DNA of 64,000 nucleotides, from positions 1,487 to 65,486 of the forward strand of contig CAYGLL010000003.1 in assembly GCA_964350935.1 (NCBI GenBank). The letters run 5' to 3'. Shown piece after piece: positions 21,788-57,164 of this stretch. The stretch is from an uncultured Candidatus Saccharibacteria bacterium. GTDB lineage: Bacteria > Patescibacteriota > Minisyncoccia > Phycocordibacterales > CAYGLL01. The notes below the pieces were generated by a model. It saw nothing but the letters and a program-made list of their open reading frames with translations, had not been told where the DNA came from and searched no databases. Position numbers and translations under genes: made by a program. Positions within the stretch are counted from its first letter, which is position 1; the number at the start of each line of letters is the position of its first letter.

Positions 21788-22240
21788 ATGACAATCACCT
21801 GGACTATGTTACTCACTGCTGTGACCCTCTTCTTCTCGCTCTTCGGCGCCTGGGCGGTCGGCCGCCTTCACGATCGGTCCGAAAGCAAGCGGGTTCTCGC
21901 CCTTGCGTGGGCAAAGCTCGTTCTCGGGCTTCTCATCACGGTATATCTCGGCTTCAGCCAGATGCACAAGGCGGTGCCCGCCGATCAGCTCGCCGTCAAC
22001 AAGACCTATTGGGTGGCATCTGAGTTTCGGCACGCAAAGGATGGCGATCCGTTCAAACTTGAGAACTATGCCGTTATCACTGACGGCGAACACTTCCAGA
22101 CTATTCGCCTCGCACTTCATCCTGGCACGACCAACGACTTCGGTCTCAAAGTCGTGAAGACGCCGAATCTCGACGGTGGCCTGGACAGTGTGTACCTCAC
22201 CAAGTTCAGCCGGATGCCCGGCACATCAAGCTTCCAGTAA
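21788..22240 (+). CDS. hypothetical membrane protein
   Basis: 150 aa with two N-terminal TM helices, followed by a strong terminator. Confidence 0.4.
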   Translation: MTITWTMLLTAVTLFFSLFGAWAVGRLHDRSESKRVLALAWAKLVLGLLITVYLGFSQMHKAVPADQLAVNKTYWVASEFRHAKDGDPFKLENYAVITDGEHFQTIRLALHPGTTNDFGLKVVKTPNLDGGLDSVYLTKFSRMPGTSSFQ

Positions 22241-28917: not shown

Positions 28918-31065
28918 TTACGTTAGTGACGGAGGCGTTGATCCAGTTGCGGTGCCTTTCATTTTTCCGTCGGCAAAGGTAGGATCAGCTCGTTTGATTG
29001 AAAGATTGATACGTTTCTTTTCATCAATCTCTTTAACTACAACGGGAACCTTGTCACCTTCTTTCAAAACATCGGTAACGCGGTTGACGCGCGCAGGCGA
29101 AATTTCTGAGATGTGAACAAGTCCTTCTGCGTTGTGACCGATCTTAACGAATGCGCCAAAGTCCAAAATTCGTGTAACAACACCGTCAAATCGCTCACCT
29201 GTTTTGTACTCGCGGGTCATATCTTCGATCCATTTCTTTGCATTTTCTACACCTGGTGACATGCCAGTGATAAATACCGTCCCGTCGTCTTCGATGTCGA
29301 TATCGGCTCCTGTTGTGTCGATGATCTCATTAATGGTTTTGCCGCCGGTGCCGATGACGAGGCCGATCTGATCTTCCTTGATCTTGATGGTAAGGATGCG
29401 TGGCGCGCGTAGAGAAAGTTCGGTGCGCGGCGTTGCAATTTCTTTGGTGATAAATCCCAAAATTTTCAAACGAGCAGCTTTTGCCTTTTCAAATGCCTCA
29501 ACAAGAATGGAGAGCGGAATGCCGTCAACTTTAACGTCCATTTGTACGGCCGTGATTCCCTTCTCGGTGCCGGCAACTTTGAAATCCATATCGCCGTGGT
29601 GATCTTCAGGTCCCTGAATGTCGGTCAGCACGCGATGTTTTTTTCCTTCCATCATGAGGCCTGAAGCAATACCGGCAACAGGAGCAGAAATGGGAACGCC
29701 AGCGTCCATAAGTGAAAGCGTTCCCCCGCAAACCGAGCCCATTGAGGTTGAGCCGTTTGAGGCAACTGCTTCAGAAACGATGCGGATCGTGTACGGGAAT
29801 TTTTCTTTGGGCGGCAACACGGCAAGGAGCGCTTTTTCTGCAAGTGCTCCGTGGCCGATCATGCGGCGGTTTAATCCACCCATGCGGCCTGTTTCGCCCA
29901 CAGAAAATGGCGGAAAGTTGTAGTGGTGCATAAAGCGCTTGTTCTCTTCCCCTTCCATACCGTCAATGATTTGTGCGTCACGCGGACTTCCGAGTGTGAG
30001 AGCCGAAAGAATGTGTGTTCCTCCACGATAGAAAATACCTGAACCGTGGAGTACGGGTGAAAATCCGCCAGCTTTAACGAAGATAGGTCTAAGGTCGTCC
30101 ATACCGCGTCCGTCAGGGCGCTCGTTGTCCTCCAGGATTCCGCGGTGAAGTTCTATATCGAAAGCTTCGTCAATATAGCTTTTAGCAACCGCATGTTCTT
30201 CCTCAGGAAGTTCTTTTTTAAAAAGTTCACTCCATGCATCTTTCAACGCCTCGATCGATTTTTTACCCGGTTCTTTTGAGAAGACTGCCTTTGAAATTTT
30301 TGGCGCGATTTCTTTTTTGAACAGTGCGATGAGTGCTGCGGAAGGCTCCGGTTTTGCGACAACTTTTTTCTTTTTGCCGAGCTCGGCGACAATTCCTTCC
30401 TGGAATTTTTGAAATGCATCAATTTCTTTAGATGCGGCCGCGAGAGCGGCATTAATCGTTTCTTCGTTCGTTTCGAATGCGCCGACCTCGATCATGTTGA
30501 TGTTCCCGTCTTTGCCGCAGGCAACCATGTCAAACTCGCGCGTTTCTGATTCACGAAATGCATAGGCCGGATTAATGACAAACTCAGCGCTGTCTTTTGA
30601 TTTGCCGATGCGCACTGCGCCCACAGGTCCGTTCCAGGGAATGTCTGACGTTGCGAGGGCGAGCGAGGCTGCATTTACTGCCAAGATATCCGGATCGTCT
30701 TCATCAACCGAAAGAACGGTGATGACCACCTGAACGTCGTGGCGAATGTATTGAGGAAAAAGGGGGCGAATGGTGCGATCAACAACGCGTCCGGAGAGAA
30801 TTGCTTCGTCTGAAGGGCGGCCCTCGCGGCGCACAAAACGGCTTCCGAGAATTTTTCCGGTTGCATAAAAGCGCTCTTCGTAATCAACGGTGAGAGGAAA
30901 GAAGTCGGTTCCCTCGCGCGCATTTTTTGACATCACTGCAGTCGCGAGAACCACCGTGTTTCCATAGCGAAGCATAACCGAGCCATTGGCCTGGTCTGCG
31001 AGGTCGCTAAAGGTTGCTGTTAATTTTTTTCCGGCAATTTCCGTCGAGTATTCTTTTATTTGCAT
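28918..31065 (-). CDS. pnp: polynucleotide phosphorylase
   Basis: Two RNase PH domains followed by KH (IGLVIGTGGKTINEI) and S1 (GERFDGVVTRILDFGAFVKI) domains. Confidence 0.9.
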   Translation of the reverse strand: MQIKEYSTEIAGKKLTATFSDLADQANGSVMLRYGNTVVLATAVMSKNAREGTDFFPLTVDYEERFYATGKILGSRFVRREGRPSDEAILSGRVVDRTIRPLFPQYIRHDVQVVITVLSVDEDDPDILAVNAASLALATSDIPWNGPVGAVRIGKSKDSAEFVINPAYAFRESETREFDMVACGKDGNINMIEVGAFETNEETINAALAAASKEIDAFQKFQEGIVAELGKKKKVVAKPEPSAALIALFKKEIAPKISKAVFSKEPGKKSIEALKDAWSELFKKELPEEEHAVAKSYIDEAFDIELHRGILEDNERPDGRGMDDLRPIFVKAGGFSPVLHGSGIFYRGGTHILSALTLGSPRDAQIIDGMEGEENKRFMHHYNFPPFSVGETGRMGGLNRRMIGHGALAEKALLAVLPPKEKFPYTIRIVSEAVASNGSTSMGSVCGGTLSLMDAGVPISAPVAGIASGLMMEGKKHRVLTDIQGPEDHHGDMDFKVAGTEKGITAVQMDVKVDGIPLSILVEAFEKAKAARLKILGFITKEIATPRTELSLRAPRILTIKIKEDQIGLVIGTGGKTINEIIDTTGADIDIEDDGTVFITGMSPGVENAKKWIEDMTREYKTGERFDGVVTRILDFGAFVKIGHNAEGLVHISEISPARVNRVTDVLKEGDKVPVVVKEIDEKKRINLSIKRADPTFADGKMKGTATGSTPPSLT

Positions 31066-31241
31066 GGTGCCACATACGTGGCCTGCGGATTTCAGACTTG
31101 AAATTGAATTTCAAACCTGCCTATCCGACGGCCACACTACTAATAAGTGTTTCCACGCTAGCATAAAAAACATCGATTGACAAAAAGTGCCTCGCGCGTA
31201 GTTTTAATCCAAACAGTTCTACAACAACCAAAGGAAAAATT

Positions 31242-31619
31242 ATGCCTGTTATTCGTTTCATCGGTCTTCCCTCACTCAGCGGAGAGCAAGAAGCCGAACT
31301 GATTGAACTCTGTCACAGGGCCGTTCGCGGCGTACCCAATCTTGAATTAACGGAAAACCTCGAGAAGCATGTTTCGGTTTTGATTTCGAACGACCGCTTA
31401 CCGGGACGGCAACGCCCAGTCATCTTTGTCGAGGTTTTTGGACTTTTACGCAAACCACGTCGCCAAAACAACGACCGTCAACTTCTATGTGATCAACTCA
31501 TTCAATTTTTTGAGACCTTTGCATCACTTCACCTCTCGCATATTGGTGAGACGCTCGTCGAGTGCAATGTCGAGCCATTTATCGAGAGTTCACACAGAGC
31601 CGAAGTTTTCGGGTCATAA
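31242..31619 (+). CDS. hypothetical protein (possible tautomerase-like, Pro-1)
   Basis: Begins MPVIRF and is ~125 aa; the assignment is speculative. A strong terminator follows at 31633-31660. Confidence 0.3.
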   Translation: MPVIRFIGLPSLSGEQEAELIELCHRAVRGVPNLELTENLEKHVSVLISNDRLPGRQRPVIFVEVFGLLRKPRRQNNDRQLLCDQLIQFFETFASLHLSHIGETLVECNVEPFIESSHRAEVFGS

Positions 31620-31632
31620 TTTTGAACGCGAA

Positions 31633-31660
31633 CGCCGAGGCAACCCCTCGGCGTTTTTTT
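31633..31660 (+). terminator. rho-independent terminator
   Basis: cgccgaggcaacccctcggcg+TTTTTTT. Confidence 0.65.
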
Positions 31661-31705
31661 GTCTCAAAAAAAGGAAGACCCGCCAACGGTAAACGTGTGG
31701 CGGGT

Positions 31706-32286
31706 CTATTTTCTGTTGTAGTATTCTTCCAACGTGCTAAACGAGATTCCTCGTTCGGGATATTCCACGACCCACTCTCGGGCGTCACTCGTACCTGCAG
31801 GACGAACATGAAGGGCATCTCCCATCGACAGAATGATTAGCGAGTCACTCCACTTCACGGAAAACTGAGATGTCCTGTTTGTTCCCCGTGCGGTTGTGAT
31901 GATCTGCGGGTCTCCGTCGAGCTTCGAAACAAATCCTTTTTTCGGAGACTGTATTTGAGAGAGCGTGTGAACACGTACCAGTACCGGTGCGAGTTCGTGT
32001 GATCTCTCAAGAAGCTGATCATCAGGTGATCGGGTGATGCGAATACCGGCCCCTCGTTCAATCTCACAGGCTACCACGTAGTTGTTGAGAATGGGGGGTG
32101 GGTCTTCCGTAGAAAACGGAATCCATGTTTTTTTCTTCCCCGGGCATCCCAGGGAAAACCCGAAATGTGGTCCCGATTGGGAAACAGCAATACCGTCGAT
32201 AAGGCGAAGGCTCCCTACACCCTCAGAACTTCGCAGTTCATGAGGGGTCTCTTCATGTTGGAAGAACACAGTATATGTTCTCATTA
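31706..32286 (-). CDS. hypothetical protein
   Basis: Start chosen at MRTYTVFFQHEE. The track ORF has a 94-aa N-terminal extension that looks unlikely to be real. Confidence 0.3.
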
Positions 32287-32372
32287 GTTTTAACCTTTCT
32301 TTGAAGAGCGTTACTCCATGTAAGAGTACACAAAGATAGTATTTTGTCAAAATTTGATCGCTCAATGTTTGT

Positions 32373-32412
32373 AAATAAAAAAAGGCGCCGTGCACAACCT
32401 GTGCACGGCGCT
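32373..32412 (-). terminator. rho-independent terminator after GC-rich gene
   Basis: ggcgccgtgcacaacctgtgcacggcgcc with a T7 run on the minus strand. Confidence 0.6.
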
Positions 32413-32438
32413 TGAGAAGGCATGAGCCTTCGAGGAAC

Positions 32439-33626
32439 TTATGGCTGTTTGACACCGACAGTCTCAGCGGCCGGAGTGCAACCTTCCGCAACAACCTCGA
32501 GTGTGAGTTTGTCGAGCGCGACCGCAGTCGTGCCCGGCCGACGCGTGTTGCGTTTCGGCGGAGCAACGGACTTGTTTCCGGCAGGCTTTTCGGCCTGCTT
32601 GCGGGCCGGTTGAACGGTGTCAGTCACCGGACTTGCAGTCGCGGTCGTTTCCGCAGGCGCATCTGGCGTGGCGGTAACCGTGATGAGCACGGGGCCCTCG
32701 GCGTGGCCGGCGGGAACAAAGGTCCCCTCCGGCTTACCAGGAACCCAGAGCATTTCACCAGCGACAGGAGCCGTGGGCGGGAGAGCGGCGATCTGCTTTC
32801 TCGACGCTTTCGGAAACTCACGCTTCACGCGCGGGTCAGCGACCTCAACGTAGATGGCATCCTTTCCGGACCCGATGCGCTTCTCGAAGGCGAAGTCCTC
32901 GCCGACGAAGCTCGTGGATCGCTCCAGGAGTTCACCGAGGTGTCCGTAGAACGCCTGCACACGCTTGCGCCCTTTGCCAGTTTCGCTTGTCGGCCCCTCA
33001 AACTGCCAGACGCGGTACACGTCGTTCGTGACTCCCGGAGGGAAACTCCGGGGGTCGGCGCACAGAGAGCGACTGCCGTCCGCGTTGCGACGTTCCCACT
33101 TGGTTTCGGCCGTGAGGACGATTGCTCCCGCACCAGTGGTATGGAACGGAGCCAATGGGTCGCCTTTGGCGAGCCGAGGGTACTCGGCGTTGAAGTCAGC
33201 GAGCGTCCCCTCGAAGTAGGGCTGGTCTGCCTGCGCTGCGCCGTTTGAGGTGCAGTTCACATGTGTCGCGAAGTAGTACGGACGACCCGCGATTTCCTTC
33301 ACCGCGTCGGAGTAGTGAAACCCGACGCCGACGAGGAAGGTTAGGAATCCCCCCTCAGGGCGACGTGAGAGTTCCGGTTGAATGAGCACGACCTGCGTGC
33401 CCTGCTCGAACCTGAAGTCTCCGAGTTCACCGGCGGTTTCGGGGAGTTCCCGTCCGGCAACGATCTTATAGACGTTGCCGAGCGAGAAGTGAACCCCGCG
33501 CTGACCACTTTCATGGTCGGCGACGCTGATGAAGCCGAACTTCTTCTCCCGGTTGACGTAGGTCACGTAACCGACGATGACTTCGACGTTGCCGCGTTTG
33601 GTTTTGAGTACGAGTTTGCTGTTCAT
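32439..33626 (-). CDS. hypothetical protein with N-terminal cold-shock-domain-like fold; strongly GC-rich (foreign-looking)
   Basis: 395 aa with N-terminal GYVTYVNREKKFGFISV resembling a CSD. The DNA is about 60%+ GC against a ~45% background. Confidence 0.45.
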   Translation of the reverse strand: MNSKLVLKTKRGNVEVIVGYVTYVNREKKFGFISVADHESGQRGVHFSLGNVYKIVAGRELPETAGELGDFRFEQGTQVVLIQPELSRRPEGGFLTFLVGVGFHYSDAVKEIAGRPYYFATHVNCTSNGAAQADQPYFEGTLADFNAEYPRLAKGDPLAPFHTTGAGAIVLTAETKWERRNADGSRSLCADPRSFPPGVTNDVYRVWQFEGPTSETGKGRKRVQAFYGHLGELLERSTSFVGEDFAFEKRIGSGKDAIYVEVADPRVKREFPKASRKQIAALPPTAPVAGEMLWVPGKPEGTFVPAGHAEGPVLITVTATPDAPAETTATASPVTDTVQPARKQAEKPAGNKSVAPPKRNTRRPGTTAVALDKLTLEVVAEGCTPAAETVGVKQP

Positions 33627-33774
33627 TTCGATGTGCCTTTCAGTGCTAGTTTTCTCTGAGGTGGCGATAGCCTTATCCAGGTAGAGTTACCCGAGACCTT
33701 AGTGAAAACGTATCTGGTGCAATCTTATCATAAATAAACCATATTGTCAATAGTCGTAGGATGGAGTTTTCGGC

Positions 33775-33807
33775 ATACAAAAACCCCTCAAAATGGGGGT
33801 TTTTTGG
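33775..33807 (-). terminator. bidirectional rho-independent terminator
   Basis: aaaaacccctcaaaatgggggtttttt. Confidence 0.55.
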
Positions 33808-33826
33808 CTCTATTTTGATATTGATA

Positions 33827-34372
33827 TTAGCCGCGCTGAGCTCGTTGTCGTTGACTACCGCGCACCTGCCCCATCAGGTATTTACGCTGATTTTCGTCGA
33901 GATCGATAAAGTCGTCTGCAGCCTCAATAAGCTTTGCTGACGTCGATTTTCCAAATGAAACAACCTCAACCTGGCATCCTTCGTTTGTTTTCAAATACTC
34001 AACCAAAGGCACGAAATCGCCATCTCCTGAAAGAAGAATGACAGCATCAAGCTTGGGCGCAAGTTTAACGGCATCAATCGCAAGTCCCACATCCCAGTCA
34101 GCTTTTTTTGCTCCGCTTCCGAAAATTTGAAGATCTTTAACCTTTGTTTCGATACCCATTTTACCCAGGGCCTCAAAAAATGCCTGTTCTTCGCCGGATT
34201 CTGTTGAAATGACATAGGCGACCGCACGAATGAGTGATCGCTCGGCAACCGCATCTTTGACGATCTGACCGAAATTTACTTTGGTATGATAAAGGTTTTT
34301 GGCGCTATGGTAAAGGTTTTGCGTATCAATGAATACACCAACACGCTGTTCTTTGTGTTTAATAATTGACAT
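33827..34372 (-). CDS. NYN-domain (LabA-like) protein
   Basis: VGVFIDTQNLYHSAK...ILLSGDGDFVPLVEYLK. Confidence 0.7.
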   Translation of the reverse strand: MSIIKHKEQRVGVFIDTQNLYHSAKNLYHTKVNFGQIVKDAVAERSLIRAVAYVISTESGEEQAFFEALGKMGIETKVKDLQIFGSGAKKADWDVGLAIDAVKLAPKLDAVILLSGDGDFVPLVEYLKTNEGCQVEVVSFGKSTSAKLIEAADDFIDLDENQRKYLMGQVRGSQRQRAQRG

Positions 34373-34518
34373 ATGATTATTGTACTACAGTAGTTAACAA
34401 AACAATCCCGCATTCGCAGGGTTGTTTTTAAAATTATTTCGGTTAGCGAGAAGCGAAGTGGGAAATTCTGATTTTCTACTTCGTTCGAGCGAAGACGAAA
34501 CAAAGGGTTTAATACCCT

Positions 34519-34785
34519 TTATTTGCGTAAATCGAGTTTTTTGAGGAGAGAGTTGTAGCGTCGTTTGTTTTTCTTCTCCAAATATCTCATGTGTGACTGG
34601 CGATTTGCGACGAGCGACAAAAGTCCGCGTCGTGAATGCTTGTCTTTCTGATGTTTTTTGAGGTGGCCGGTTAACTCTTGAATGCGGCGCGTTAAAATTG
34701 AGATCTGAACCTCAGGTGAGCCGGTGTCTTTGTCATGCATGCCGGCCTCCTTAATTATTTTCTGCTTTTTTGTTTTTTTCAGCAT
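34519..34785 (-). CDS. rpsO: 30S ribosomal protein S15
   Basis: GSPEVQISILTRRIQELTGHLKKHQKDKHSRRGLL..RYLEKK. Confidence 0.85.
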   Translation of the reverse strand: MLKKTKKQKIIKEAGMHDKDTGSPEVQISILTRRIQELTGHLKKHQKDKHSRRGLLSLVANRQSHMRYLEKKNKRRYNSLLKKLDLRK

Positions 34786-34911
34786 GTTTCAACAGTCTAA
34801 CACGAAAGGTGAATTATTGCAATACTTTCAGTAGTTTATGAATAAAAAATGAGGTGACGTTACTAAGAGTGAGAGTGAATATGTGAAAATAATCTTATTT
34901 AGAGCCATTTT

Positions 34912-35871
34912 TTGGAAGTTGTCTCAATTTCCAATATGTCGCACAATATTTGTATGGAGATTGTTAACTACAAACGTGAGTTCCTCGAATATCTTGAGCT
35001 TGAAAAAGGGCGGAGCCTTAAAACAATTGAAAATTATGATCGATATCTCTCACATTTTATTGAACAAAGTAAGGTTCGCTTTGCGAGTGACATAACCGAC
35101 AGCTGTGTAAAACAGTTTCGTCTCGAGTTGAACCGTCAGCTTGTCCCCCACTCATCTGCGCACAGCCGCCAAACGCTTAAAAAGAAAACTCAAAACTATT
35201 ACCTCATCGCGCTACGTGTTTTCCTCAAGTATCTTATACGTCAGGGGGTTAAAACGTTATCACCGGATCGAATTGAGCTTGCACGTTTAGGTGAGCGATC
35301 CCTTGACCTCATTTCAGGAACCGAACTTTCACGTCTGTTGGCCGCGCCTTCTGGCGATGAGCTTAAGGACGTAAGAGATAAGGCTATACTGGAGCTTCTC
35401 TTTTCAACCGGACTACGTGTTTCTGAGGTTGCTTCATTGCCGCGCGATATTGATATCTCTCACGACGAACTTTCGGTGCGCGGAAAGGGTGAAAAGGTGC
35501 GCGTCGTCTTTATTTCTCCGACCGCAAAGGAGGCAGTGAAAAAATATCTTCAGAAACGAAAAGATATGAACGATATGTTGTTCGTAAATATTAAAAAAGG
35601 ATCGGGTGAAGAAATGAGCGCACCTCTCACCTCGCGTTCGATTGAACGTATTGTAAAATTTTACGCGATTAAAGCCGGTATCTCAAAAAAAGTTACGCCG
35701 CACGTCATTCGCCACAGTTTTGCTACCGATCTTTTGCGCAACGGCGCAGATCTACGCTCGGTGCAGATGCTTCTTGGTCACTCAAATATTTCGACAACTC
35801 AAATTTATACGCATATCACTGACAAACAACTAAAAGAAATTCACAAAAAATTTCACAATCGTGGAAGTTAG
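34912..35871 (+). CDS. xerD: tyrosine site-specific recombinase XerC/XerD family
   Basis: C-terminal HVIRHSFATDLLRNGADLRSVQMLLGHSNISTTQIYTH carrying the catalytic R-H-R-Y motifs. Confidence 0.8.
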   Translation: MEVVSISNMSHNICMEIVNYKREFLEYLELEKGRSLKTIENYDRYLSHFIEQSKVRFASDITDSCVKQFRLELNRQLVPHSSAHSRQTLKKKTQNYYLIALRVFLKYLIRQGVKTLSPDRIELARLGERSLDLISGTELSRLLAAPSGDELKDVRDKAILELLFSTGLRVSEVASLPRDIDISHDELSVRGKGEKVRVVFISPTAKEAVKKYLQKRKDMNDMLFVNIKKGSGEEMSAPLTSRSIERIVKFYAIKAGISKKVTPHVIRHSFATDLLRNGADLRSVQMLLGHSNISTTQIYTHITDKQLKEIHKKFHNRGS

Positions 35872-36233: not shown

Positions 36234-37757
36234 CTATTCCACGAAATGTTTCTTTCGAATACTTTTTATTTTTTCCTCCTCTTCTTTATCTTTCTTTTCT
36301 TTCCCCTTTTTTCCCATTGTTTCAAGTTCTTTCTCCGACATGTTCATGAGTTCGATAGATTTTTTTTCAAGATATTCGGGTGTATTTTTTTTGGGATCAT
36401 CAAGGACTTCTTCCAGTAAAGCGTGCAAAACGTGCCCTATTTTTGGTCCAGGGTTCGTTTGAGCCACTTCCATTATCCTTTTTCCGTCTATTTTTAGCAT
36501 TGAAACCGATATGGGGTCGCTCATAACCTCTTCAATAAGAGATTTGTATTTTCTTAGTCTGTAGGGGTTCTCTTTTGGGCGCCCGGTACCGATACGATCA
36601 CAGTTTCGAACGTTCATAAGGTCCCAGATCCTATCTTTGCCGACATTAGCAACGATTCTACGAACCGCTGAGAGGGATATTTGTTCGGTGTCTGAGAAAA
36701 ACATGTGCCAGCGGACTAGTTTCGCAACTTCCTCAATTGTTTTCACGGGAAACTTCAGATCTTTAAGAGTTTCACGTGTAATCCGCTCTCCTATAACTTC
36801 GTGGCCGTGGAAAGTCCAATCTTTCTTTTCTTCAGACCAGCGCCGGCTTTTAGGTTTACCGATATCGTGAAAAAGAGCCGCTAAACGAATTTCAAAGGAA
36901 AACTTTTTATCAGCCGCATGTTGGAGAGACTTAAGCAAGTGCTCCCAAACGTCGTATTTGTGGGTCTTATTTTGTGTTACACCAACAGATTCGGCTAGTT
37001 CTTTCGAAATATAGGTAAGAATCCCCAATTTCTGGCTTAAAACAAGTCCTCGAGAAGGTTGCTCAGACATGATTACACGTGAAAACTCATCGCGAACACG
37101 TTCTTTGGCTATGTTTTTCAACAGATTAGCATTGGCCCTGATTCCTTCGACTGTTTTACTGTTGAGTTCGAAATCGAGCTCTGTAGAAAGCCTTATAGCG
37201 CGGAGCATCCGAAGCGCATCCTCGTTGAAGCGGTCGTGGGGTTCCCCGACCGTCGTCAGGATGCGTTCTTTAAGGTCACGGATTCCCCCATAGAGGTCTA
37301 TAATATGTCCTTTATAAGAATTGTCCTTTATAACCTCAATATCGATGGCGATGGCGTTTATCGTAAAATCACGACGCTTGAGATCCTCCTCAACGCTTTC
37401 ACTAAACTTAACTGTGTCAGGACGTCGATTGTCCGAATATTCAGTTTCGGTGCGAAATGTAGTTACTTCGACGATTTGAAGAGATGGGTCATCCGTTTCA
37501 TTTTTTACGCCAACTGTTCCAAATTTATTTTCGTAAAATGACTCAGTTTTAAACAAATCGAGTATTTGGTCTGGCGTTGCGTTTGTTGTTACGTCCCAGT
37601 CTTTAGGTTTTCTCTCTATAATGAGATCTCGTGTACAGCCACCCACCAAATAAGCCTTATATTTAGCCTTTTTTAAACTTTCAACGACACGAGAAACTTC
37701 TTGCGGGATAGTAAATTTTTTCTCAAAAGGCTCGTTCATTTCCTGATTTTCGCACAT
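36234..37757 (-). CDS. cca: CCA-adding tRNA nucleotidyltransferase with C-terminal HD domain
   Basis: GGCTRDLII...DWDVTT polymerase-beta-type head and a C-terminal HD domain (HDIGK). The track's N-terminal extension is antisense to tRNA-Arg, so the start is set at MCENQEMNEP. Confidence 0.75.
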   Translation of the reverse strand: MCENQEMNEPFEKKFTIPQEVSRVVESLKKAKYKAYLVGGCTRDLIIERKPKDWDVTTNATPDQILDLFKTESFYENKFGTVGVKNETDDPSLQIVEVTTFRTETEYSDNRRPDTVKFSESVEEDLKRRDFTINAIAIDIEVIKDNSYKGHIIDLYGGIRDLKERILTTVGEPHDRFNEDALRMLRAIRLSTELDFELNSKTVEGIRANANLLKNIAKERVRDEFSRVIMSEQPSRGLVLSQKLGILTYISKELAESVGVTQNKTHKYDVWEHLLKSLQHAADKKFSFEIRLAALFHDIGKPKSRRWSEEKKDWTFHGHEVIGERITRETLKDLKFPVKTIEEVAKLVRWHMFFSDTEQISLSAVRRIVANVGKDRIWDLMNVRNCDRIGTGRPKENPYRLRKYKSLIEEVMSDPISVSMLKIDGKRIMEVAQTNPGPKIGHVLHALLEEVLDDPKKNTPEYLEKKSIELMNMSEKELETMGKKGKEKKDKEEEEKIKSIRKKHFVE

Positions 37758-37796
37758 TTTTCTCAATTCACACAATCTAATGTATGATGATTTTAT

Positions 37797-37869
37797 GCGT
37801 TCGTAGCTCAATGGATAGAGCACTTGCCTTCGAAGCAAGGGGTTGCAGGTTCGAGTCCTGCCGAGCGCG
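37797..37869 (+). tRNA. tRNA-Arg (anticodon TCG), no encoded CCA
   Basis: Hand-folded cloverleaf: acceptor GCGTTCG/CGAGCGC, anticodon loop CTTCGAA and T-loop TTCGAGT. Confidence 0.7.
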
Positions 37870-38080
37870 CAGCGATCGAGCAAGGCGATTTATCGCCTTG
37901 CGAGCAGGACTCGAAAAGGCTGAGTATATTTCTGGAAAATTCTTATTTTTCTGGAATTCGAAGCCTGTACCGGTCCTGTAGGGACCGGGTCCCAACCACT
38001 GATCTCGTAGAGATCGAGTTTTTCTTGATAGCCTGTAGTTTTTTGCCCAAACGCCTTGTTGTGCTAGAATTTCGAAGTTC

Positions 38081-42818: not shown

Positions 42819-43514
42819 GTGGCTCAAGTGAACATTGAAAAGGCGCTTATGAAGAAAACAGAACTTACGAAACTCATTTTGGAAAAACTTGGTGGTGAAA
42901 GTGAAGCCCGGAAGTTTCTCCTTGGCGAAAAGCGGTTGGTTGATGCAGATGTATATCAACGAATATTACATATGGAGAATGTTGTGGTTGGTGACCAGCA
43001 AGTAGCAGACTCGATACCATACAGACCACTGTGCATTCTAAAAACAGGACCTCGGTTTTTTGGGAATCGTCGGCTACAGCTTCTGTGTGCAAAAGTGGTG
43101 GGATTGGAAGTTGAACCGGAGCTCGGAGCGTGGTGGTTACGAACACGCCGTTCCATAACGACCAAAAGTAATATTGAGTTGGAGTTGGTTACGGTTACAC
43201 CAAAAAGCCTCGGTGTTACCCAGTATCATAATGGGGGTTACAAAAAGATATACGAAAAAGCATGGGAATTAGGTCTCTCTGTATGTCCTTTCGATCTAGC
43301 ATTCGACATTGCGATGCTCCAAAAGCAAAGAAAATTGGAGGGGGACTATATAATCGGTAAAAAGTCCCCACCCTCCGGTGAGATTGCAGGAGTTTTTACT
43401 CGGGGTAGGAAGAAGCCTTTTGTGAAAATCGTGTATCTCGAATCAAGTTTATGTGATCCTGAGGAAAAATGGATCTTTGTTTGGCGAAAGGCACTTTACA
43501 GCGAGAATGTGTAA
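42819..43514 (+). CDS. hypothetical protein
   Basis: 231-aa ORF divergent from the TrmB-like paralog; the start is uncertain. Confidence 0.35.
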   Translation: MAQVNIEKALMKKTELTKLILEKLGGESEARKFLLGEKRLVDADVYQRILHMENVVVGDQQVADSIPYRPLCILKTGPRFFGNRRLQLLCAKVVGLEVEPELGAWWLRTRRSITTKSNIELELVTVTPKSLGVTQYHNGGYKKIYEKAWELGLSVCPFDLAFDIAMLQKQRKLEGDYIIGKKSPPSGEIAGVFTRGRKKPFVKIVYLESSLCDPEEKWIFVWRKALYSENV

Positions 43515-43525
43515 TAATTCGTAAA

Positions 43526-43595
43526 CGGCCTGATCGCAAGATCAGGCCGTTTTTCTACTTACAAAAAGAAATATTTTTTGAATTTGCTGCGAAAC
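43526..43595. repeat. ~70-bp repeat copy 2
   Basis: cggcctgatcgcaagatcaggccg+TTTTT, then ctacttacaaaaagaaatattttttgaattt. Confidence 0.6.
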
Positions 43596-44392
43596 ATGTC
43601 GGCTTTGCGTTTGTTGCGCGTAACAGAAAACCGGTTTTTACCTTTTTGTGAAAGGATTTTTTCGAGTTCTTGTTTTTCAGCTTCTCCAAAATCCTTACTC
43701 TTTTGGTAAAAGGATTCAATATCACCGCATACTTTTTTATCGAGCCAGACCTCGATCACAAAATCACCAATAATGTTCACGTAGTAATTATTTTTTTCAA
43801 ACAATCCTTTTTCGAGCATTTCGTAGTGTGTAGTGGTCGTTCCTAAAAATGTTTTGGCAAGTTTATCAAGCGGAGTACGATTGGCACACAATATAGCTAG
43901 TTTTTGTCTCCGACCAGCAATTTTTTTAAAAAGCCCTGTCTCGTTTTCAGTTCGCGCGAGTAAAAACCATTCGTGAGGGTTGTAAATAAGCACGGGGAGT
44001 TGCGGGGAGGAGGTTTCAACGAGCGTAATAAAAACGTGCGACCAAAATGCGTCAGTAAGCACTGGATTTTTGAAGTAGTACTGAATTTTTTCTCCTTGGT
44101 GCAGATTGAGAAAGGTGTTGTTAGGAGAATCGGTATTTCTGATTGCGTGTTCGGCTTTTCTAAAAAATTCCTCCATTGAAGAAATCCAGACACCGCTCAA
44201 ACTGATATTTTTTTTGTGAACCACGACCACCTCGGTTTTTTTAAGTTTTCGGATCGTCTGATAAACACCCTGTTTGGTGGTTTTTGGCCGCTTGTTTTTG
44301 ATTATTTCAATGAGTTTAACGATTGGGAGCGGGCCACTTTGAAGGTGTACAAAAATATAGTCTTCAGTTGAGATCGGGGATAGGAGATTCAT
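43559..44392 (-). CDS. divergent TrmB-like/wHTH regulator (paralog 4 of 4)
   Basis: N-terminal HTH-like IVKLIEIIKNKRPKTTKQGVYQTIRKLKK. The C-terminus, FYLQKEIFFEF in the other frame, lies inside the shared repeat. Confidence 0.4.
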   Translation of the reverse strand: MNLLSPISTEDYIFVHLQSGPLPIVKLIEIIKNKRPKTTKQGVYQTIRKLKKTEVVVVHKKNISLSGVWISSMEEFFRKAEHAIRNTDSPNNTFLNLHQGEKIQYYFKNPVLTDAFWSHVFITLVETSSPQLPVLIYNPHEWFLLARTENETGLFKKIAGRRQKLAILCANRTPLDKLAKTFLGTTTTHYEMLEKGLFEKNNYYVNIIGDFVIEVWLDKKVCGDIESFYQKSKDFGEAEKQELEKILSQKGKNRFSVTRNKRKADMFRSKFKKYFFL

Positions 44393-44540
44393 AGAGATAC
44401 CCTAGCAGAGGAGTACCTAAAAGTAAACAAATTATTTACTTTTTATTATAAAAATAAGGATATTTTGACATAAACTACTAAATATTGTATAGTTGCAGCA
44501 GAAGAAAGCTATTGTTGCTTTCAGAACTTTGAAAGGAAAC

Positions 44541-44822
44541 ATGAAAAAAATCTTGTTAAGTGTCCTCTACTTGTCAACACTGGTTTGTTTGGTAGGAGTT
44601 GCCTGGAAATTCTGCGGTCCGATCAAACACACCAAAGAAATTGTGAACGTTGTTTATCGGGGTTACCGAACAAGTTTTGAAGTTCACCGAGTTCGAGTAA
44701 ACGAATTTACCGGAGCGTTTTGGATGTTCGGCATTTACGTCATTCCTTTTTTAGCTTTTGCAGGTATCAGCCTAATAGGTTTGAGTGATATCGGAGCTTC
44801 AAAAAAGGAAAATGAGGGCTGA
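44541..44822 (+). CDS. small membrane protein
   Basis: Start at MKKILLSVLYLSTLV. It has two TM helices. Confidence 0.35.
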   Translation: MKKILLSVLYLSTLVCLVGVAWKFCGPIKHTKEIVNVVYRGYRTSFEVHRVRVNEFTGAFWMFGIYVIPFLAFAGISLIGLSDIGASKKENEG

Positions 44823-55166: not shown

Positions 55167-57164
55167 TTAAAGGAATGGAACGAGGAGAAGGGCAATGATA
55201 TTGATGATCTTGATGACAGGATTGATGGCTGGCCCCGCAGTGTCCTTATAAGGATCTCCAACCGTATCGCCAGTGACTGCGGCCTTGTGAGCTTCAGATC
55301 CTTTGCCGCCGTGGTTTCCTTCCTCAATATGCTTCTTGGCATTGTCCCACGCTGCGCCGCCTGAAGTCATTGAGATAGCGACGAAGATTCCGGTGACGAT
55401 TGAACCGACGAGAAGTCCGCCCAAGGCTTCCTTTCCAAGACCGAACGCAACAACAACAGGAATTACGACCGGAAGAAGTGCAGGGACGATCATTTCTTTA
55501 ATAGCCGCGCGCGTGACGATATCGACGCAGCGGGCGTAATCAGGAATGCCAGTACCAGCCATAATTCCTGGAATTTCTTTGAACTGTCGGCGAACTTCGA
55601 TCACTACGCTTCCTGCTGCCTTGCTGACCGCCTTCATTGAGATTGCAGCGAAGAGAAACGGAATGAGACCGCCCAAGAGAAGTCCCGCGACAACATTCGG
55701 GTCGCTCAAATCAAAGACTCCAGTAGAGCCGGCTTTTTTCAAATCCTCAACGTATGAAGCGAAGAGAACGACCGCGGCCAATCCTGCTGAACCAATTGCG
55801 TAGCCCTTGGTGACCGCCTTTGTGGTGTTACCGACAGCGTCCAATGCATCTGTGACCTCGCGGACATTCTTTGGAAGACCTGACATTTCCGCAATACCGC
55901 CGGCGTTGTCGGTAATGGGGCCGAAGGCGTCGATCGCGACGATAATGCCAGTCATTGAGAGCATGCTCATGGTTGCAAGCGCGACACCGTAGAGGCCGGC
56001 ATAGTGGTACGATGCCAAGATACTTCCGACGATCACAATGACCGGGAGCGCGGTTGCCTCCATACCGACTGAAAGACCGGTAATGATGTTTGTGCCGTGT
56101 CCAGTTTCAGATGATTTCGAAATTGAGCGGACCGGACGGAAGCTCTTTGAAGTGTAGTACTCAGTGATGAGGACGATAAGTGCGGTTGCAACGATACCGA
56201 CGATCATGGGGGCAAAAAGTTCCTTGAAACCGAGTGCGGTGCCTGTGCTCTCGGTCAAGATATTTTGGAATTTGTTTGCGAGGACAGCAAAGCCAACCAA
56301 CGCCAAGATGCTTGACGCGGCGAGACCTTTATAGAGTGCGCCCATGATCGAGCCTGACTTTCCAAGTCGGACAAAGAATATACCGATGAGTGAGGCGATA
56401 ATTGAGATGCCGCCGATGGCGAGGGGAAGCGTGATAGCTTCAGCCGCATTTGGGAAAATAAGACTGCCCAAGATCATTGCAGCAATTGCTGAAACAGCGT
56501 AGGTTTCGAAAAGGTCAGCGGCCATACCAGCACAGTCACCGACATTGTCACCGACGTTGTCGGCAATAACAGCTGGGTTGCGCGGATCGTCTTCCGGAAT
56601 TCCTGCTTCAACTTTTCCGACGAGGTCAGCACCGACGTCAGCACCTTTAGTAAAGATGCCCCCGCCCAAACGAGCGAAGACTGAGATCAAACTCCCTCCG
56701 AAGGCCAAACCAATGAGTGCTGAAACATCTTTTGTGACGAAGAAGAAGAGCGCAACCGAGAGAAGTGCGAGCCCGACAACTAAGAGTCCGGTGACCGCGC
56801 CGCCCTCGAATGCAACGGCGAGCGCTTCGCGCAAACCTTTCTTGGCCGCTTCCGCGGTCTTTACGTTAGCACGAACAGAAACGTTCATGCCGATGTAGCC
56901 GGCGACTGCTGAAGCAATAGCGCCGATCAAGAATCCAACCATTGTCGTTGAATTCAAGAAGTAGCCGATCAAGGCTGCAATGACGAGGGCCACAACTGCT
57001 ACCGTTTTGTACTGACGGTTGAGATAAGCCTTGGCGCCAGTCTGAATAGCGCTCGCAATTTTCTGCATTTTCTCGTCGCCGTTTGGCTTGCTGCCGATGC
57101 GACTAATAATAAAACCTGCTCCGACAATCGCTAACCCTGCTGAAACGAGTGAAAAAATCTCCAT
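55167..57164 (-). CDS. hppA: membrane-bound proton/sodium-translocating pyrophosphatase
   Basis: 665 aa with about 16 TM helices and the motifs [18 protein letters not shown] and [19 protein letters not shown]. Confidence 0.9.

What the first reader, a model, noticed from the sequence alone, without database searches (positions are those of the whole stretch)
31242..34372. GC-rich foreign-looking insertion separating rpsO from pnp
rpsO (34519-34785) and pnp (28918-31065) are normally adjacent, in the order rpsO-pnp. Here they are about 3.4 kb apart on the same strand. The intervening DNA carries the following, each unit with its own strong terminator:
- an NYN-domain gene
- a 395-aa gene of visibly high GC (32439-33626, about 60%+ against a ~45% background) with a cold-shock-domain-like N-terminus
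- a 193-aa hypothetical gene
- a divergent MP-initiated 125-aa ORF

The composition shift and the operon disruption indicate horizontally acquired DNA of unknown function.
Basis: seen in the sequence. Interest (0 to 1): 0.6.

Follow-up and report, generated by a model that had tools for sequence, protein, structure and literature searches.

The report
GC-rich cold-shock-like gene beside pnp
The GC-rich stretch between rpsO and pnp is a single gene of a small, uncharacterised family found in candidate-phyla (Patescibacteria) bacteria; its GC excess looks like the codon bias of a very highly expressed native gene, not the mark of a foreign donor, and it carries a previously undescribed structured RNA leader.

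Summary
Gene A (32439-33626, minus strand) has 61.8% GC and GC3 0.71, against 46% and 0.47 for the window, and it is the strongest composition outlier there.

- **NYN gene:** it is ancestral. The order rpsO-NYN-pnp holds in 73 of 80 Paceibacteria relatives.
- **Variable part:** only the NYN-pnp gap varies, and 24 of 73 relatives carry unrelated cargo there.
- **This window's cargo:** a conserved two-gene module, A (395 aa) plus B (192 aa), and an orphan 125-aa ORF.

The A+B pair recurs in five lineages with different flanks, one of them also NYN-A-B.

A has three parts:
- a divergent cold-shock/OB-like N-terminus;
- two copies of a novel beta domain;
- a disordered tail.

A is richer in GC3 than its host in 8 of 8 contexts, while its co-inherited partner B is not. 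Its codon shifts follow those of rpsO in this clade. Every A gene has a near-consensus promoter.

Six A genes share a leader with four helices supported by compensatory changes; a seventh fits by eye but was not found by the model. Rfam has no match.

Best reading: a native, probably very highly expressed nucleic-acid-binding protein with a regulatory leader, sitting in an insertion hotspot. Expression has not been measured.

The parts
34912..35871 (+). Tyrosine recombinase (Xer-like), divergent from rpsO. It is a conserved neighbour and not part of the insert.
   Evidence: Pfam Phage_integrase 1.9e-42. It is found at the same position in most of the 80 relatives.
34519..34785 (-). rpsO (ribosomal protein S15)
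   Evidence: Pfam Ribosomal_S15 4.1e-31.
33827..34372 (-). NYN-domain (LabA-like) gene. It is ancestral between rpsO and pnp in this clade.
   Evidence: Pfam NYN 1.9e-36. It lies between rpsO and pnp in 73 of 80 Paceibacteria loci at 53-83% identity.
33779..33806 (-). Terminator-like hairpin after NYN (AAAAAACCCCCATTTTGAGGGGTTTTTG)
   Evidence: Read in the sequence. The scan lists the same hairpin, on the + strand, at 33785-33799.
33722..33750 (-). Promoter of gene A: TTGACA, 17 nt, TAAGAT, with TG before the second hexamer
   Evidence: Best promoter-like site of the region, 10 of 12 matches plus TG. Seven of the eight A homologues have TTGACA-17/18-(TG)nTATAAT-type sites; the L087 contig is too short to show one.
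33627..33721 (-). 5' leader of gene A (about 95 nt). The conserved structured RNA motif lies at 33650-33707.
   Evidence: Covariance model R1 scores 67.6 bits. The four-helix structure has 18 pairs, 90.7% of cells paired and 9 pairs with compensatory changes; 0 of 500 shuffles reach this. Single-sequence folds give the same architecture. Rfam has no match.
32439..33626 (-). Gene A, 395 aa, the GC-rich gene. Its domains are a divergent CSD/OB-like N-terminus, two tandem copies of a novel beta domain that each end in a D-P-R motif, and a disordered Pro/Ala/Thr/Lys-rich tail with a conserved C-terminal peptide.
   Evidence: GC 0.618 and GC3 0.71. The family has 60 members. The AF2 model has pLDDT above 90 for residues 1-270. 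The internal repeat scores hhalign 97.5%, E = 9e-12.
32385..32411 (-). Intrinsic terminator of A (12-bp stem with 9 G-C pairs, then a T run)
32322..32350 (-). Promoter-like site of gene B (TTGACAAAAT...), directly after A's terminator
   Evidence: Read in the sequence. Four of the five A-B loci have TTGACAA at the same relative position; L089 has TTTACAA. The -10 element is weak in the window.
31706..32284 (-). Gene B, 192 aa, the conserved partner of A. Its biochemical function is unknown.
   Evidence: A homologue lies downstream of A in L002, L088, L089 and L093 at 24-38% identity. No Pfam, PHROG, PADLOC, NCBIfam or PDB match.
31630..31705 (.). Two back-to-back terminator hairpins, serving B (minus strand) and orf125 (plus strand)
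   Evidence: 31630-31656, + strand. Inverted repeat I2 at 31665-31718. Sequence.
31242..31619 (+). orf125, an orphan ORF that begins Met-Pro, convergent with B and divergent from pnp. It is not a conserved partner of A-B.
   Evidence: ORF list. No family match apart from a weak PHROG hit, E = 0.016. No homologue in the 80 related loci. Called as a gene in the ENA contig L084.
28918..31065 (-). pnp (polynucleotide phosphorylase)
   Evidence: The 715-aa product carries RNase_PH, KH_1 and S1 domains. It is 50-69% identical to the PNPase of 80 Patescibacteria genomes.

Best explanation
The 3.4 kb between rpsO and pnp has two layers.

1. **The NYN ribonuclease-domain gene is ancestral.** rpsO-NYN-pnp is the normal order in this Patescibacteria (Paceibacteria) clade.
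2. **The 2.76 kb between NYN and pnp is lineage-specific cargo.** The site holds different genes in different relatives. Here the cargo is a conserved two-gene module, A plus B, and an orphan ORF.

Gene A makes a 395-aa protein with three parts:
- a divergent cold-shock/OB-like nucleic-acid-binding N-terminus that keeps the RNP1 (KKFGFI) and RNP2 (VHF) aromatic residues;
- two copies of a novel beta domain;
- a disordered basic tail.

A is transcribed on its own, from a near-consensus promoter to a strong terminator. Its leader of about 95 nt folds into a conserved four-helix structure.

Its high GC is not a donor signature. It is a strong, actively maintained preference for G- and C-ending codons, of the kind seen more mildly in rpsO and HU of these genomes. 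That preference, inferred rather than measured, points to very high expression.

Also inferred:
- A is an abundant RNA (or single-stranded DNA) binding protein.
- The leader controls its synthesis after transcription, possibly by binding A itself, as in cspA.
- B, made from its own promoter, acts with A.
- The position next to NYN and PNPase is most likely an accident of the hotspot.
For: **Synteny**
- rpsO-NYN-pnp holds in 73 of 80 relatives. The NYN-pnp gap is under 700 bp in 49 of 73 loci and 1.0-4.2 kb in 24.
- The cargo in those larger gaps is unrelated from one lineage to the next: FabH-like, LexA, DUF475/TerC, LpxC-like, TrmB, PIF1 and Bro-N proteins.

**The A-B pair is a unit**
- It occurs in five lineages with different flanks: the window, L002 (next to alr), L088 (NYN-A-B), L089 (PK-478-A-B-B') and L093 (AK-A-B-PDDEXK).

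**The GC excess is a trait of the family**
- A's GC3 exceeds its host's by 0.13 to 0.34 in 8 of 8 contexts. B's does not.

**The codon bias follows the host and tracks expression**
- C is used at NNY codons 86% of the time in A. The window's mean is 47%, sd 12%. The next highest gene is HU, at 73%.
- For Leu, A uses CTC 83% and CTG 9%. The host uses CTC 37% and CTG 9%.
- In 71 relatives, rpsO has higher GC3 than its neighbours (+0.049, p = 5e-8) and a higher C-bias (+0.11, p = 2.5e-7).
- A's codon shifts correlate with the rpsO shifts: r = 0.57 for the family and r = 0.51 for the window gene.

**Transcription signals**
- Consensus-type promoters lie upstream of seven of the eight A homologues; the L087 contig is too short to show one.
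- A terminator follows A in each of the five A-B loci, and in four of the five a TTGACAA promoter box for B comes right after it; L089 has TTTACAA.

**Leader RNA**
- Six sequences support four helices: 90.7% of cells paired, 9 pairs with compensatory changes, 0 of 500 shuffles as good, and slid controls at 57% or less.
- Separate single-sequence folds give the same architecture.
- The model finds nothing else in 1.5 Mb of related DNA.

**Cold-shock-like N-terminus:**

**No mobile or viral link:**
Against: - Expression was not measured. The argument from codon bias and promoter strength is indirect.
- A's bias is far stronger than that of rpsO or HU. G-ending codons rise as well as C-ending ones, which a general GC pressure would also produce.
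- The p-values of the codon correlation are inflated, because the two codons of a two-fold family mirror each other. Within the GC-ending and AT-ending classes the correlation is weaker (r = 0.31-0.47).
- The cold-shock assignment is below Pfam's threshold for the window protein. Only 1 of 44 family members reaches E of 0.01 or better.
- The two novel domains have no structural match, and B could not be modelled, so the biochemical function is a guess.
- The leader rests on six sequences. A seventh (L089) fits by eye and by its own fold but was not found by the model. The more distant A genes (L086, L096) lack it.
- The composition outlier is extreme (z = 5.6), which on its face favours foreign origin.
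Confidence: 0.55

Rival explanations
1. Recent horizontal acquisition from a GC-rich donor. The GC and codon usage of gene A would reflect the donor genome and would not yet have drifted to the host's composition.
For: - A is the strongest GC, GC3 and tetranucleotide outlier in 64 kb.
- It lies in a gap that varies among relatives.
- The family is rare and patchily distributed.
- Both G- and C-ending codons are enriched.
Against: - B is co-inherited with A and equally diverged (37-38% against 30-38% identity), yet has host-like GC3.
- A homologues that are only 30-40% identical remain richer in GC3 than their hosts in 8 of 8 contexts. Those hosts range from GC3 0.33 to 0.56, so the excess persists over long times.
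- A relative, L088 (NYN 87% identical), already has NYN-A-B with A only 30% identical. The insertion is therefore old.
- Leu is CTC 83% and CTG 9%, as in the host. That is atypical of high-GC genomes (own knowledge).
- All four named family members are Patescibacteria.
- There is no integrase, att repeat or tRNA at the borders, and no phage or plasmid homologue.
Confidence: 0.15
2. A non-selective or non-translational GC pressure acts on gene A. One candidate is GC-biased gene conversion at a recombination-prone locus. Another is selection for a GC-rich, stable or structured mRNA, independent of expression level.
For: - Both G- and C-ending codons are enriched, and the excess is much larger than in rpsO or HU.
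- A evolves fast relative to its neighbours: 30% identity where NYN is 87%.
- The module changes its genomic location.
- In L089 an adjacent unrelated 478-aa gene is also GC3-rich, at 0.77.
Against: - B, 150 nt downstream of A in every locus, is not affected. A regional process would have to stop at the terminator.
- The codon shifts correlate with those of rpsO even within the GC-ending and AT-ending classes for the family (r = 0.37 and 0.47).
- Consensus promoters point to high expression.
Confidence: 0.15
3. A-B is a mobile two-gene cassette of the defence or toxin-antitoxin kind. It would hop between variable sites, and its rapid divergence would reflect an arms race.
For: - The module is a compact gene pair with a variable location and a patchy distribution.
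- It diverges fast.
- Its neighbours in other genomes include a PD-(D/E)XK nuclease, a PIF1 helicase and an NTase/HEPN-like pair.
Against: - No PADLOC or PHROG match for A or B.
- Each gene has its own promoter and terminator, rather than forming one operon.
- A strong constitutive-type promoter and extreme codon optimisation are unusual for such cassettes (own knowledge).
- No mobility gene or repeat was found.
Confidence: 0.08
4. Assembly artefact: a GC-rich fragment from another organism was joined into the contig.
For: - In separate ENA assemblies, contigs break in or near gene A.
  - L001 covers only 32387-33737.
  - L083 ends at 33138.
  - L084 starts near 33065.
Against: - L083 spans xer-rpsO-NYN and 489 nt into A.
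- L084 spans the last 627 nt of A, then B, orf125, pnp and beyond.
- Both are 100% identical to the window.
- The A-B adjacency is conserved in four other lineages, and NYN-A-B in L088.
Confidence: 0.02

Closest known systems
CspA-family cold-shock proteins and the cspA mRNA leader of Escherichia coli (own knowledge of the family; Pfam PF00313, Rfam cspA thermoregulator)
   Same: - The N-terminal beta-barrel has RNP1-like (KKFGFI) and RNP2-like (VHF) motifs.
- The family profile matches CspB/CspA chains, and the fold search matches a CSD protein.
- The gene is monocistronic with a very strong promoter, a long structured 5' leader and strong codon bias.
   Different: - A is 395 aa, against about 70 aa for Csp proteins.
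- It adds two copies of a novel domain and a disordered tail of about 115 residues.
- It scores below Pfam's CSD threshold (14.3 against 27 bits).
- The leader has no Rfam match and a different architecture.
- A has a conserved partner gene, B.
- Cold induction is untested.
Eukaryotic cold-shock-domain proteins with long disordered extensions (CRHSP-24/CARHSP1, YB-1)
   Same: The best structural match of the model is CRHSP-24 (3aqq: probability 1.0, TM-score 0.57 on the target, 86 columns). The layout of a CSD followed by a long basic disordered tail is similar.
   Different: Only the OB/CSD core matches (17% identity). The two beta domains in the middle have no counterpart. There is no evolutionary link beyond the shared fold.
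Horizontally acquired genomic islands recognised by anomalous GC
   Same: - The composition is an outlier.
- The location is a site that varies among relatives.
- The distribution is patchy.
   Different: - No integrase, tRNA or direct repeats lie at the borders.
- The anomaly is confined to one gene.
- The partner gene is host-like.
- The anomaly persists across deeply diverged homologues.
The rpsO-pnp operon of E. coli and other bacteria (own knowledge)
   Same: rpsO lies upstream of pnp on the same strand.
   Different: - In this clade a NYN-domain gene lies between them as a rule.
- Each gene here is followed by its own terminator-like hairpin.
- The NYN-pnp spacer is an insertion hotspot.

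Membership tests
Cold-shock domain (Pfam PF00313 CSD) | Sequence match to the CSD profile above the curated threshold (27 bits) | tested here: not met
   The window protein scores 14.3 bits, E = 0.039. NCBIfam CspC gives E = 0.017. Only 1 of 44 family members matches at E of 0.01 or better; that best match is 3.1e-5.
Cold-shock domain (Pfam PF00313 CSD) | Five-stranded OB-type beta-barrel with RNP1 (K-G-F-G-F-I) and RNP2 (V-F-V-H-F) aromatic motifs | tested here: inconclusive
   - The family profile matches 37 Csp/Y-box chains of the PDB, best E = 1.1e-4, over RNP1 and RNP2.
- Foldseek gives CRHSP-24 at probability 1.0 but E = 0.04, followed by OB-fold proteins.
- KKFGFI and GVHF are present in the window protein.
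- The model has pLDDT above 90 in this part.
Cold-shock domain (Pfam PF00313 CSD) | Binding of single-stranded RNA or DNA | not testable with these tools
   This needs purified protein.
Horizontally acquired genomic island | Composition different from the host's | tested here: met
   Gene A has GC 0.618 against 0.463 for the window. Its tetranucleotide distance is z = 5.6. This applies to gene A only.
Horizontally acquired genomic island | Mobility signatures: integrase or transposase belonging to the island, flanking direct repeats, a tRNA or other attachment site | tested here: not met
   - No convincing flanking repeats.
- The nearest tRNA is 3.4 kb away, beyond cca.
- The Xer-like recombinase is a conserved neighbour in relatives that lack the insert.
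Horizontally acquired genomic island | Absent from the same site in close relatives | tested here: inconclusive
   It is absent from the NYN-pnp gap of all 73 species representatives examined. It is present as NYN-A-B in L088, the closest relative found, whose NYN is 87% identical.
Horizontally acquired genomic island | Composition explained by a donor (codon usage unlike the host's; all co-transferred genes share it) | tested here: not met
   B is host-like. A keeps the host's CTC-over-CTG preference. A's excess is seen in 8 of 8 hosts and correlates with the rpsO shifts.
NYN domain (Pfam PF01936), for the gene 33827-34372 | Profile match above threshold | tested here: met
   126.2 bits against a cutoff of 24.2, full length.
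Known RNA families (Rfam 15), including the cspA thermoregulator | Covariance-model match in the leader of A | tested here: not met
   There is no match in the leader at E of 1 or better within 30900-35000. Two chance-level hits lie elsewhere in that stretch.
Known anti-phage defence systems (PADLOC) and phage protein families (PHROGs) | Profile match of A or B | tested here: not met
   No match for A, B or their homologues. Only the NYN gene matches a LabA-like NYN model.

The most novel reading that the evidence does not exclude
A and B would define a Patescibacteria-specific system not yet described. A would be a very abundant multi-domain RNA-binding protein: a cold-shock-like barrel, two copies of a new fold and a disordered tail. 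Its synthesis would be governed by a new class of structured 5' leader, a four-helix motif with the conserved linker GGAUAAG, perhaps through binding of A itself or through temperature. B would be its obligate partner. In cells with tiny genomes and few known RNA chaperones, this could be a major organiser of RNA metabolism. That would also explain why its gene is the most codon-optimised in the region.
Probability: 0.3. Interest if true: 0.65.

Novelty: new variant of a known kind. Interest (0 to 1): 0.5.

Why it matters
- **For annotation practice.** A sharp GC and tetranucleotide outlier is usually read as foreign DNA. Here comparison with homologues shows the opposite: the outlier is a family trait that travels with the gene and fits expression-linked codon bias. 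This is a useful caution for island-finding in small, poorly known genomes.
- **For Patescibacteria biology.** These organisms are uncultured or hard to culture, and most of their abundant proteins are unknown.
  - A probably highly expressed nucleic-acid-binding protein with two new domains, a conserved partner and a conserved structured leader is a concrete target for expression and binding studies.
  - The clade-wide rpsO-NYN-pnp arrangement points to a NYN ribonuclease working with PNPase.
- **For RNA motif discovery.** The leader is a candidate new cis-regulatory RNA that is absent from Rfam.

Tried and rejected
- **Word-indexed protein searches.** They gave almost nothing: A had one homologue, B only itself, and the 44-sequence profile returned two proteins.
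- **First structure prediction.** With two sequences it failed, pLDDT 30. With 44 sequences it worked.
- **Gene B.** Its profile finds nothing in the PDB.
- **Viral contigs, phage records and plasmids.** No A or B homologue was found.
- **Polymorphic insertion.** The 1351-bp ENA contig that covers just gene A suggested a polymorphic insertion at first. I dropped this because other contigs from the sister sample cross both junctions and break inside the gene instead.
- **Cassette replacement.** The contrast between NYN at 87% identity and A at 30% identity (window against L088) suggested that the cassette had been replaced. I dropped this because other fast-evolving neighbours, such as orf292, are also only 21-37% identical among relatives.
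- **orf125 as a tautomerase-like protein.** The idea came from its Met-Pro start, but no profile or PDB search supports it.
- **The 223-aa gene upstream of A in L002.** It is not related to B or to orf125.
- **Model R1 and the L089 leader.** The model did not recover this leader.

Full report
**1. Checking the observation**

- rpsO, 34519-34785;
- a NYN-domain gene, 33827-34372;
- a 395-aa ORF, 32439-33626;
- a 192/193-aa ORF, 31706-32284;
- a 125-aa ORF that starts Met-Pro, on the other strand, 31242-31619;
- pnp, 28918-31065.

The composition shift is real but narrower than described. I call the 395-aa gene A.

| Measure | Gene A | Comparison |
|---|---|---|
| GC | 61.8% | window 46.3% |
| GC at codon positions 1/2/3 | 0.66/0.49/0.71 | pnp 0.59/0.41/0.49 |
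| GC of best 1-kb window | 0.633, the highest of the window | sd of 1-kb windows 0.038 |
| GC3 | 0.71 | 65 non-overlapping ORFs: mean 0.471, sd 0.070 |
| Tetranucleotide distance | rank 1 of 210, z = +5.6 | |

NYN (45%), the 192-aa gene B (50%) and orf125 (48%) are ordinary.

**2. It is not an assembly artefact**

- Contigs from separate ENA assemblies are 100% identical to the window.
- L083 runs from the recombinase through rpsO and NYN and 489 nt into A.
- L084 runs from the last 627 nt of A through B, orf125, pnp and beyond.
- L001 covers A alone.

**3. What is ancestral and what is inserted**

PNPase places the organism in the Patescibacteria, class Paceibacteria. The best matches are 50-69% identical.
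- In 73 of 80 species representatives the order is cca ... xer(-) rpsO NYN pnp orf292 dksA comM.
- The NYN gene between rpsO and pnp, and the tyrosine recombinase next to rpsO, are therefore clade-wide features. They are not part of an insertion.
- What varies is the spacer between NYN and pnp. It is under 700 bp in 49 loci and 1.0-4.2 kb in 24.
- The larger spacers hold unrelated cargo: a FabH-like enzyme, LexA, a DUF475/TerC membrane protein, an LpxC-like protein, TrmB, a PIF1 helicase and a Bro-N protein.
- None of these cargoes contains a homologue of A or B, and none is GC-rich relative to its genome.

The window's 2.76-kb spacer is thus one more filling of a hotspot. No direct repeats, mobility genes or tRNA mark its borders.

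**4. The cargo is a conserved two-gene module**

A is very rare. A word-indexed search of 5.8 billion clusters found one homologue. An exhaustive HMMER search of 1.8 billion representatives found 60 at E of 0.001 or better and 17 at 1e-10 or better. The four members that carry organism names are all Patescibacteria (Taylorbacteria, Parcubacteria, 'Patescibacteria group', and the MAG that also gave L006).

A homologue of B follows A in five independent contexts:

| Locus | Context |
|---|---|
| window | NYN, A, B, orf125, pnp |
| L002 | alr, 223-aa gene, A, B |
| L088 | NYN, A, B |
| L089 | pyruvate kinase, 478-aa gene, A, B, a B paralogue, Mur ligases |
| L093 | aspartokinase, A, B, PD-(D/E)XK nuclease |

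- In L088 the NYN protein is 87% identical to the window's, but A is 30% and B 37% identical. The module has therefore been at this site for a long time in at least one subclade.
- In a related MAG the A homologue lies elsewhere, next to a ROK kinase, while that MAG's NYN-pnp gap is empty. The module changes place over evolutionary time.

**5. What A and B are**

Neither A nor B matches any model in Pfam, NCBIfam, PHROGs or PADLOC above threshold.

A's domain layout:
- *N-terminus.* It shows a weak cold-shock signal (Pfam CSD 14.3 bits against a cutoff of 27). The 44-sequence family profile strengthens this by matching 37 Csp and Y-box chains of the PDB, best E = 1.1e-4, across the RNP1 and RNP2 motifs. 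The window protein has KKFGFI and GVHF.
- *Model.* With the family alignment, AlphaFold2 gives a confident model: pLDDT above 90 for residues 1-270 and a disordered tail from about residue 280.
- *Fold search.* Foldseek against the PDB finds only CSD/OB folds for the N-terminus (CRHSP-24 at probability 1.0, then Rpb7 and RPA). It finds nothing for the rest, and nothing among viral models.
- *Internal repeat.* Residues about 117-195 and 203-268 are two copies of one novel domain, each ending in W/Y-x-E/x-V/C-x-D-P-R (hhalign 97.5%, E = 9e-12).
- *Tail.* It ends in a peptide conserved across the family (K-S-V-A-P/M-P-K ... L-x-x-L-x-L).

B has no detectable relatives of known function and could not be modelled.

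**6. Why A is GC-rich**

Five results argue against a donor signature.
1. The excess recurs. A's GC3 exceeds its host's in 8 of 8 contexts, by 0.13 to 0.34. The hosts' GC3 ranges from 0.33 to 0.56, and the A proteins are only 30-40% identical.
2. B is co-inherited, equally diverged and 150 nt away, yet has host-like GC3 in every case.
3. A exaggerates the host's own preferences.
   - Leu is CTC 83% and CTG 9% in A, against CTC 37% and CTG 9% in the host.
   - Arg and Gly codon choice are essentially the host's.
   - C is chosen at NNY codons 86% of the time, against a mean of 47% (sd 12%).
   - The next highest gene in the window is HU (73%), a classic abundant protein.
4. Expression-linked bias in this clade points the same way. 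In 71 relatives, rpsO has higher GC3 than its neighbours (+0.049, 58 of 71, p = 5e-8) and a higher C-bias (+0.11, p = 2.5e-7).
5. Across 59 codons, the shift of A relative to its host correlates with the shift of rpsO relative to its neighbours. The correlation is r = 0.57 for the family and r = 0.51 for the window gene. It stays positive within the GC-ending and AT-ending classes.

The p-values of the last test are inflated by mirrored two-fold codons. A's bias is also much stronger than that of rpsO. A further GC pressure, such as biased gene conversion or selection on the mRNA, therefore cannot be excluded.

**7. Transcription signals and a conserved leader**

- The best promoter-like site in the region is TTGACA-17-TAAGAT, with an upstream TG, at 33750-33722, about 95 nt before A's start codon.
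- A 12-bp terminator follows A's stop codon.
- Seven of the eight A homologues carry TTGACA-17/18-(TG)nTATAAT-type promoters; the L087 contig is too short to show one. In four of the five A-B loci a TTGACAA box follows A's terminator, ahead of B; L089 has TTTACAA.

The leaders of six A genes align, and a seventh fits by eye. The structure has four helices:
- an outer helix (UUUC/GAAA, which becomes UCUC/GAGA in L088 and CUCA/UGAG in L093);
- a second helix, AGGY/RCCU;
- a 7-bp hairpin;
- a small second hairpin;
- an invariant-like linker GGAUAAG between the two hairpins.

On the six-sequence alignment, 18 pairs are 90.7% paired and 9 pairs show compensatory changes. None of 500 shuffles reaches this, and sliding the partners drops pairing to 57% or less. 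Single-sequence folds of five leaders, including L089, give the same architecture independently.

A covariance model finds only these six leaders in 1.5 Mb of related DNA. It misses L089. Rfam has no match. With so few sequences this is a candidate motif, not an established one.

**8. Interpretation**

*Shown:*
- the gene order and its conservation;
- the hotspot;
- the A-B pairing;
- the family-wide GC3 excess and its direction;
- the consensus promoters;
- covariation in the leader.

*Inferred:*
- A is very highly expressed.
- A binds RNA or single-stranded DNA through its cold-shock-like barrel.
- The leader regulates A after transcription, by analogy with cspA (own knowledge).
- B works with A.
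- The position between a NYN ribonuclease and PNPase is suggestive, but it is probably an accident of the hotspot, since the module sits next to unrelated genes elsewhere.

**9. Comparison with known systems, and verdict**

The closest known kind is the cold-shock protein gene with a long structured leader. A fails Pfam's CSD threshold, is more than five times longer, adds two new domains and a partner gene, and has an unrelated leader. It resembles a genomic island only in composition and in location at a variable site. The defining mobility features were tested and not met, and the composition is better explained otherwise.

I rate interest as moderate. The 'island' itself is ordinary. The gene family, its persistent codon bias and its leader RNA are new and testable.

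Noticed in passing
window 33827-34785; loci L003-L082: rpsO-NYN-pnp is the conserved order in 73 of 80 Paceibacteria genomes. A NYN (LabA-like) ribonuclease-domain gene is thus a fixed neighbour of S15 and PNPase in this clade, which suggests a functional link in RNA turnover.
   Followed up: partly
NYN-pnp spacer in L004-L081 (for example L017 7528-10000, L028 6762-9295, L049 7003-10000, L079 5298-7331): The spacer is an insertion hotspot. In 24 of 73 genomes it holds 1.0-4.2 kb of unrelated cargo: LexA, DUF475/TerC, LpxC-like, TrmB, PIF1 helicase, Bro-N and FabH-like proteins. No mechanism for the insertions was identified.
   Followed up: partly
window 21788-22240 (+): A second GC3-rich ORF: 150 aa, GC3 0.72, C-bias 0.69, CTC 65% of Leu. 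Its N-terminus looks hydrophobic, and it has no Pfam match. It may be another highly expressed small protein.
   Followed up: partly
window 43200-44700: The second strongest tetranucleotide outlier of the window (z = 3.3-3.6). Here the correlation with the window's profile stays high (0.82), and the ORFs are AT-rich at GC about 0.39.
   Followed up: no
L089 8248-9684 and 11795-12595: In L089 the A-B pair has two extra neighbours. Upstream lies another GC3-rich gene (478 aa, GC3 0.77, Pro/Ala-rich tail, no Pfam match). Downstream lies a B paralogue (266 aa, hhalign 94.9%). The module may be larger in some genomes.
   Followed up: partly
window 32387-33737 (L001), 33138 (end of L083), about 33065 (start of L084): Two sister ENA assemblies both break in or next to gene A. 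Possible causes are low coverage of GC-rich DNA and strain variation within A.
   Followed up: no
L096 8001-11054; L049 7156-8862: A distant A-family member (P0015, without B and without the leader motif) lies directly upstream of a PIF1 helicase. A PIF1 helicase is also one of the cargoes in the NYN-pnp gap of another genome. This may be coincidence.
   Followed up: no
window 37797-37870 and 36234-37883: The mechanical 549-aa 'cca' ORF starts inside tRNA-Arg(TCG) on the opposite strand. Its first residues (GRTRTCNPLLRRQVLYPLSYE) are a translated tRNA. The true start of the CCA-adding enzyme gene must lie further downstream.
   Followed up: no
window 5095-6915 and 55167-57164: A TraG/VirB4-like P-loop ATPase and a membrane H+-pyrophosphatase. 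Both are among the genes with above-average C-bias.
   Followed up: no
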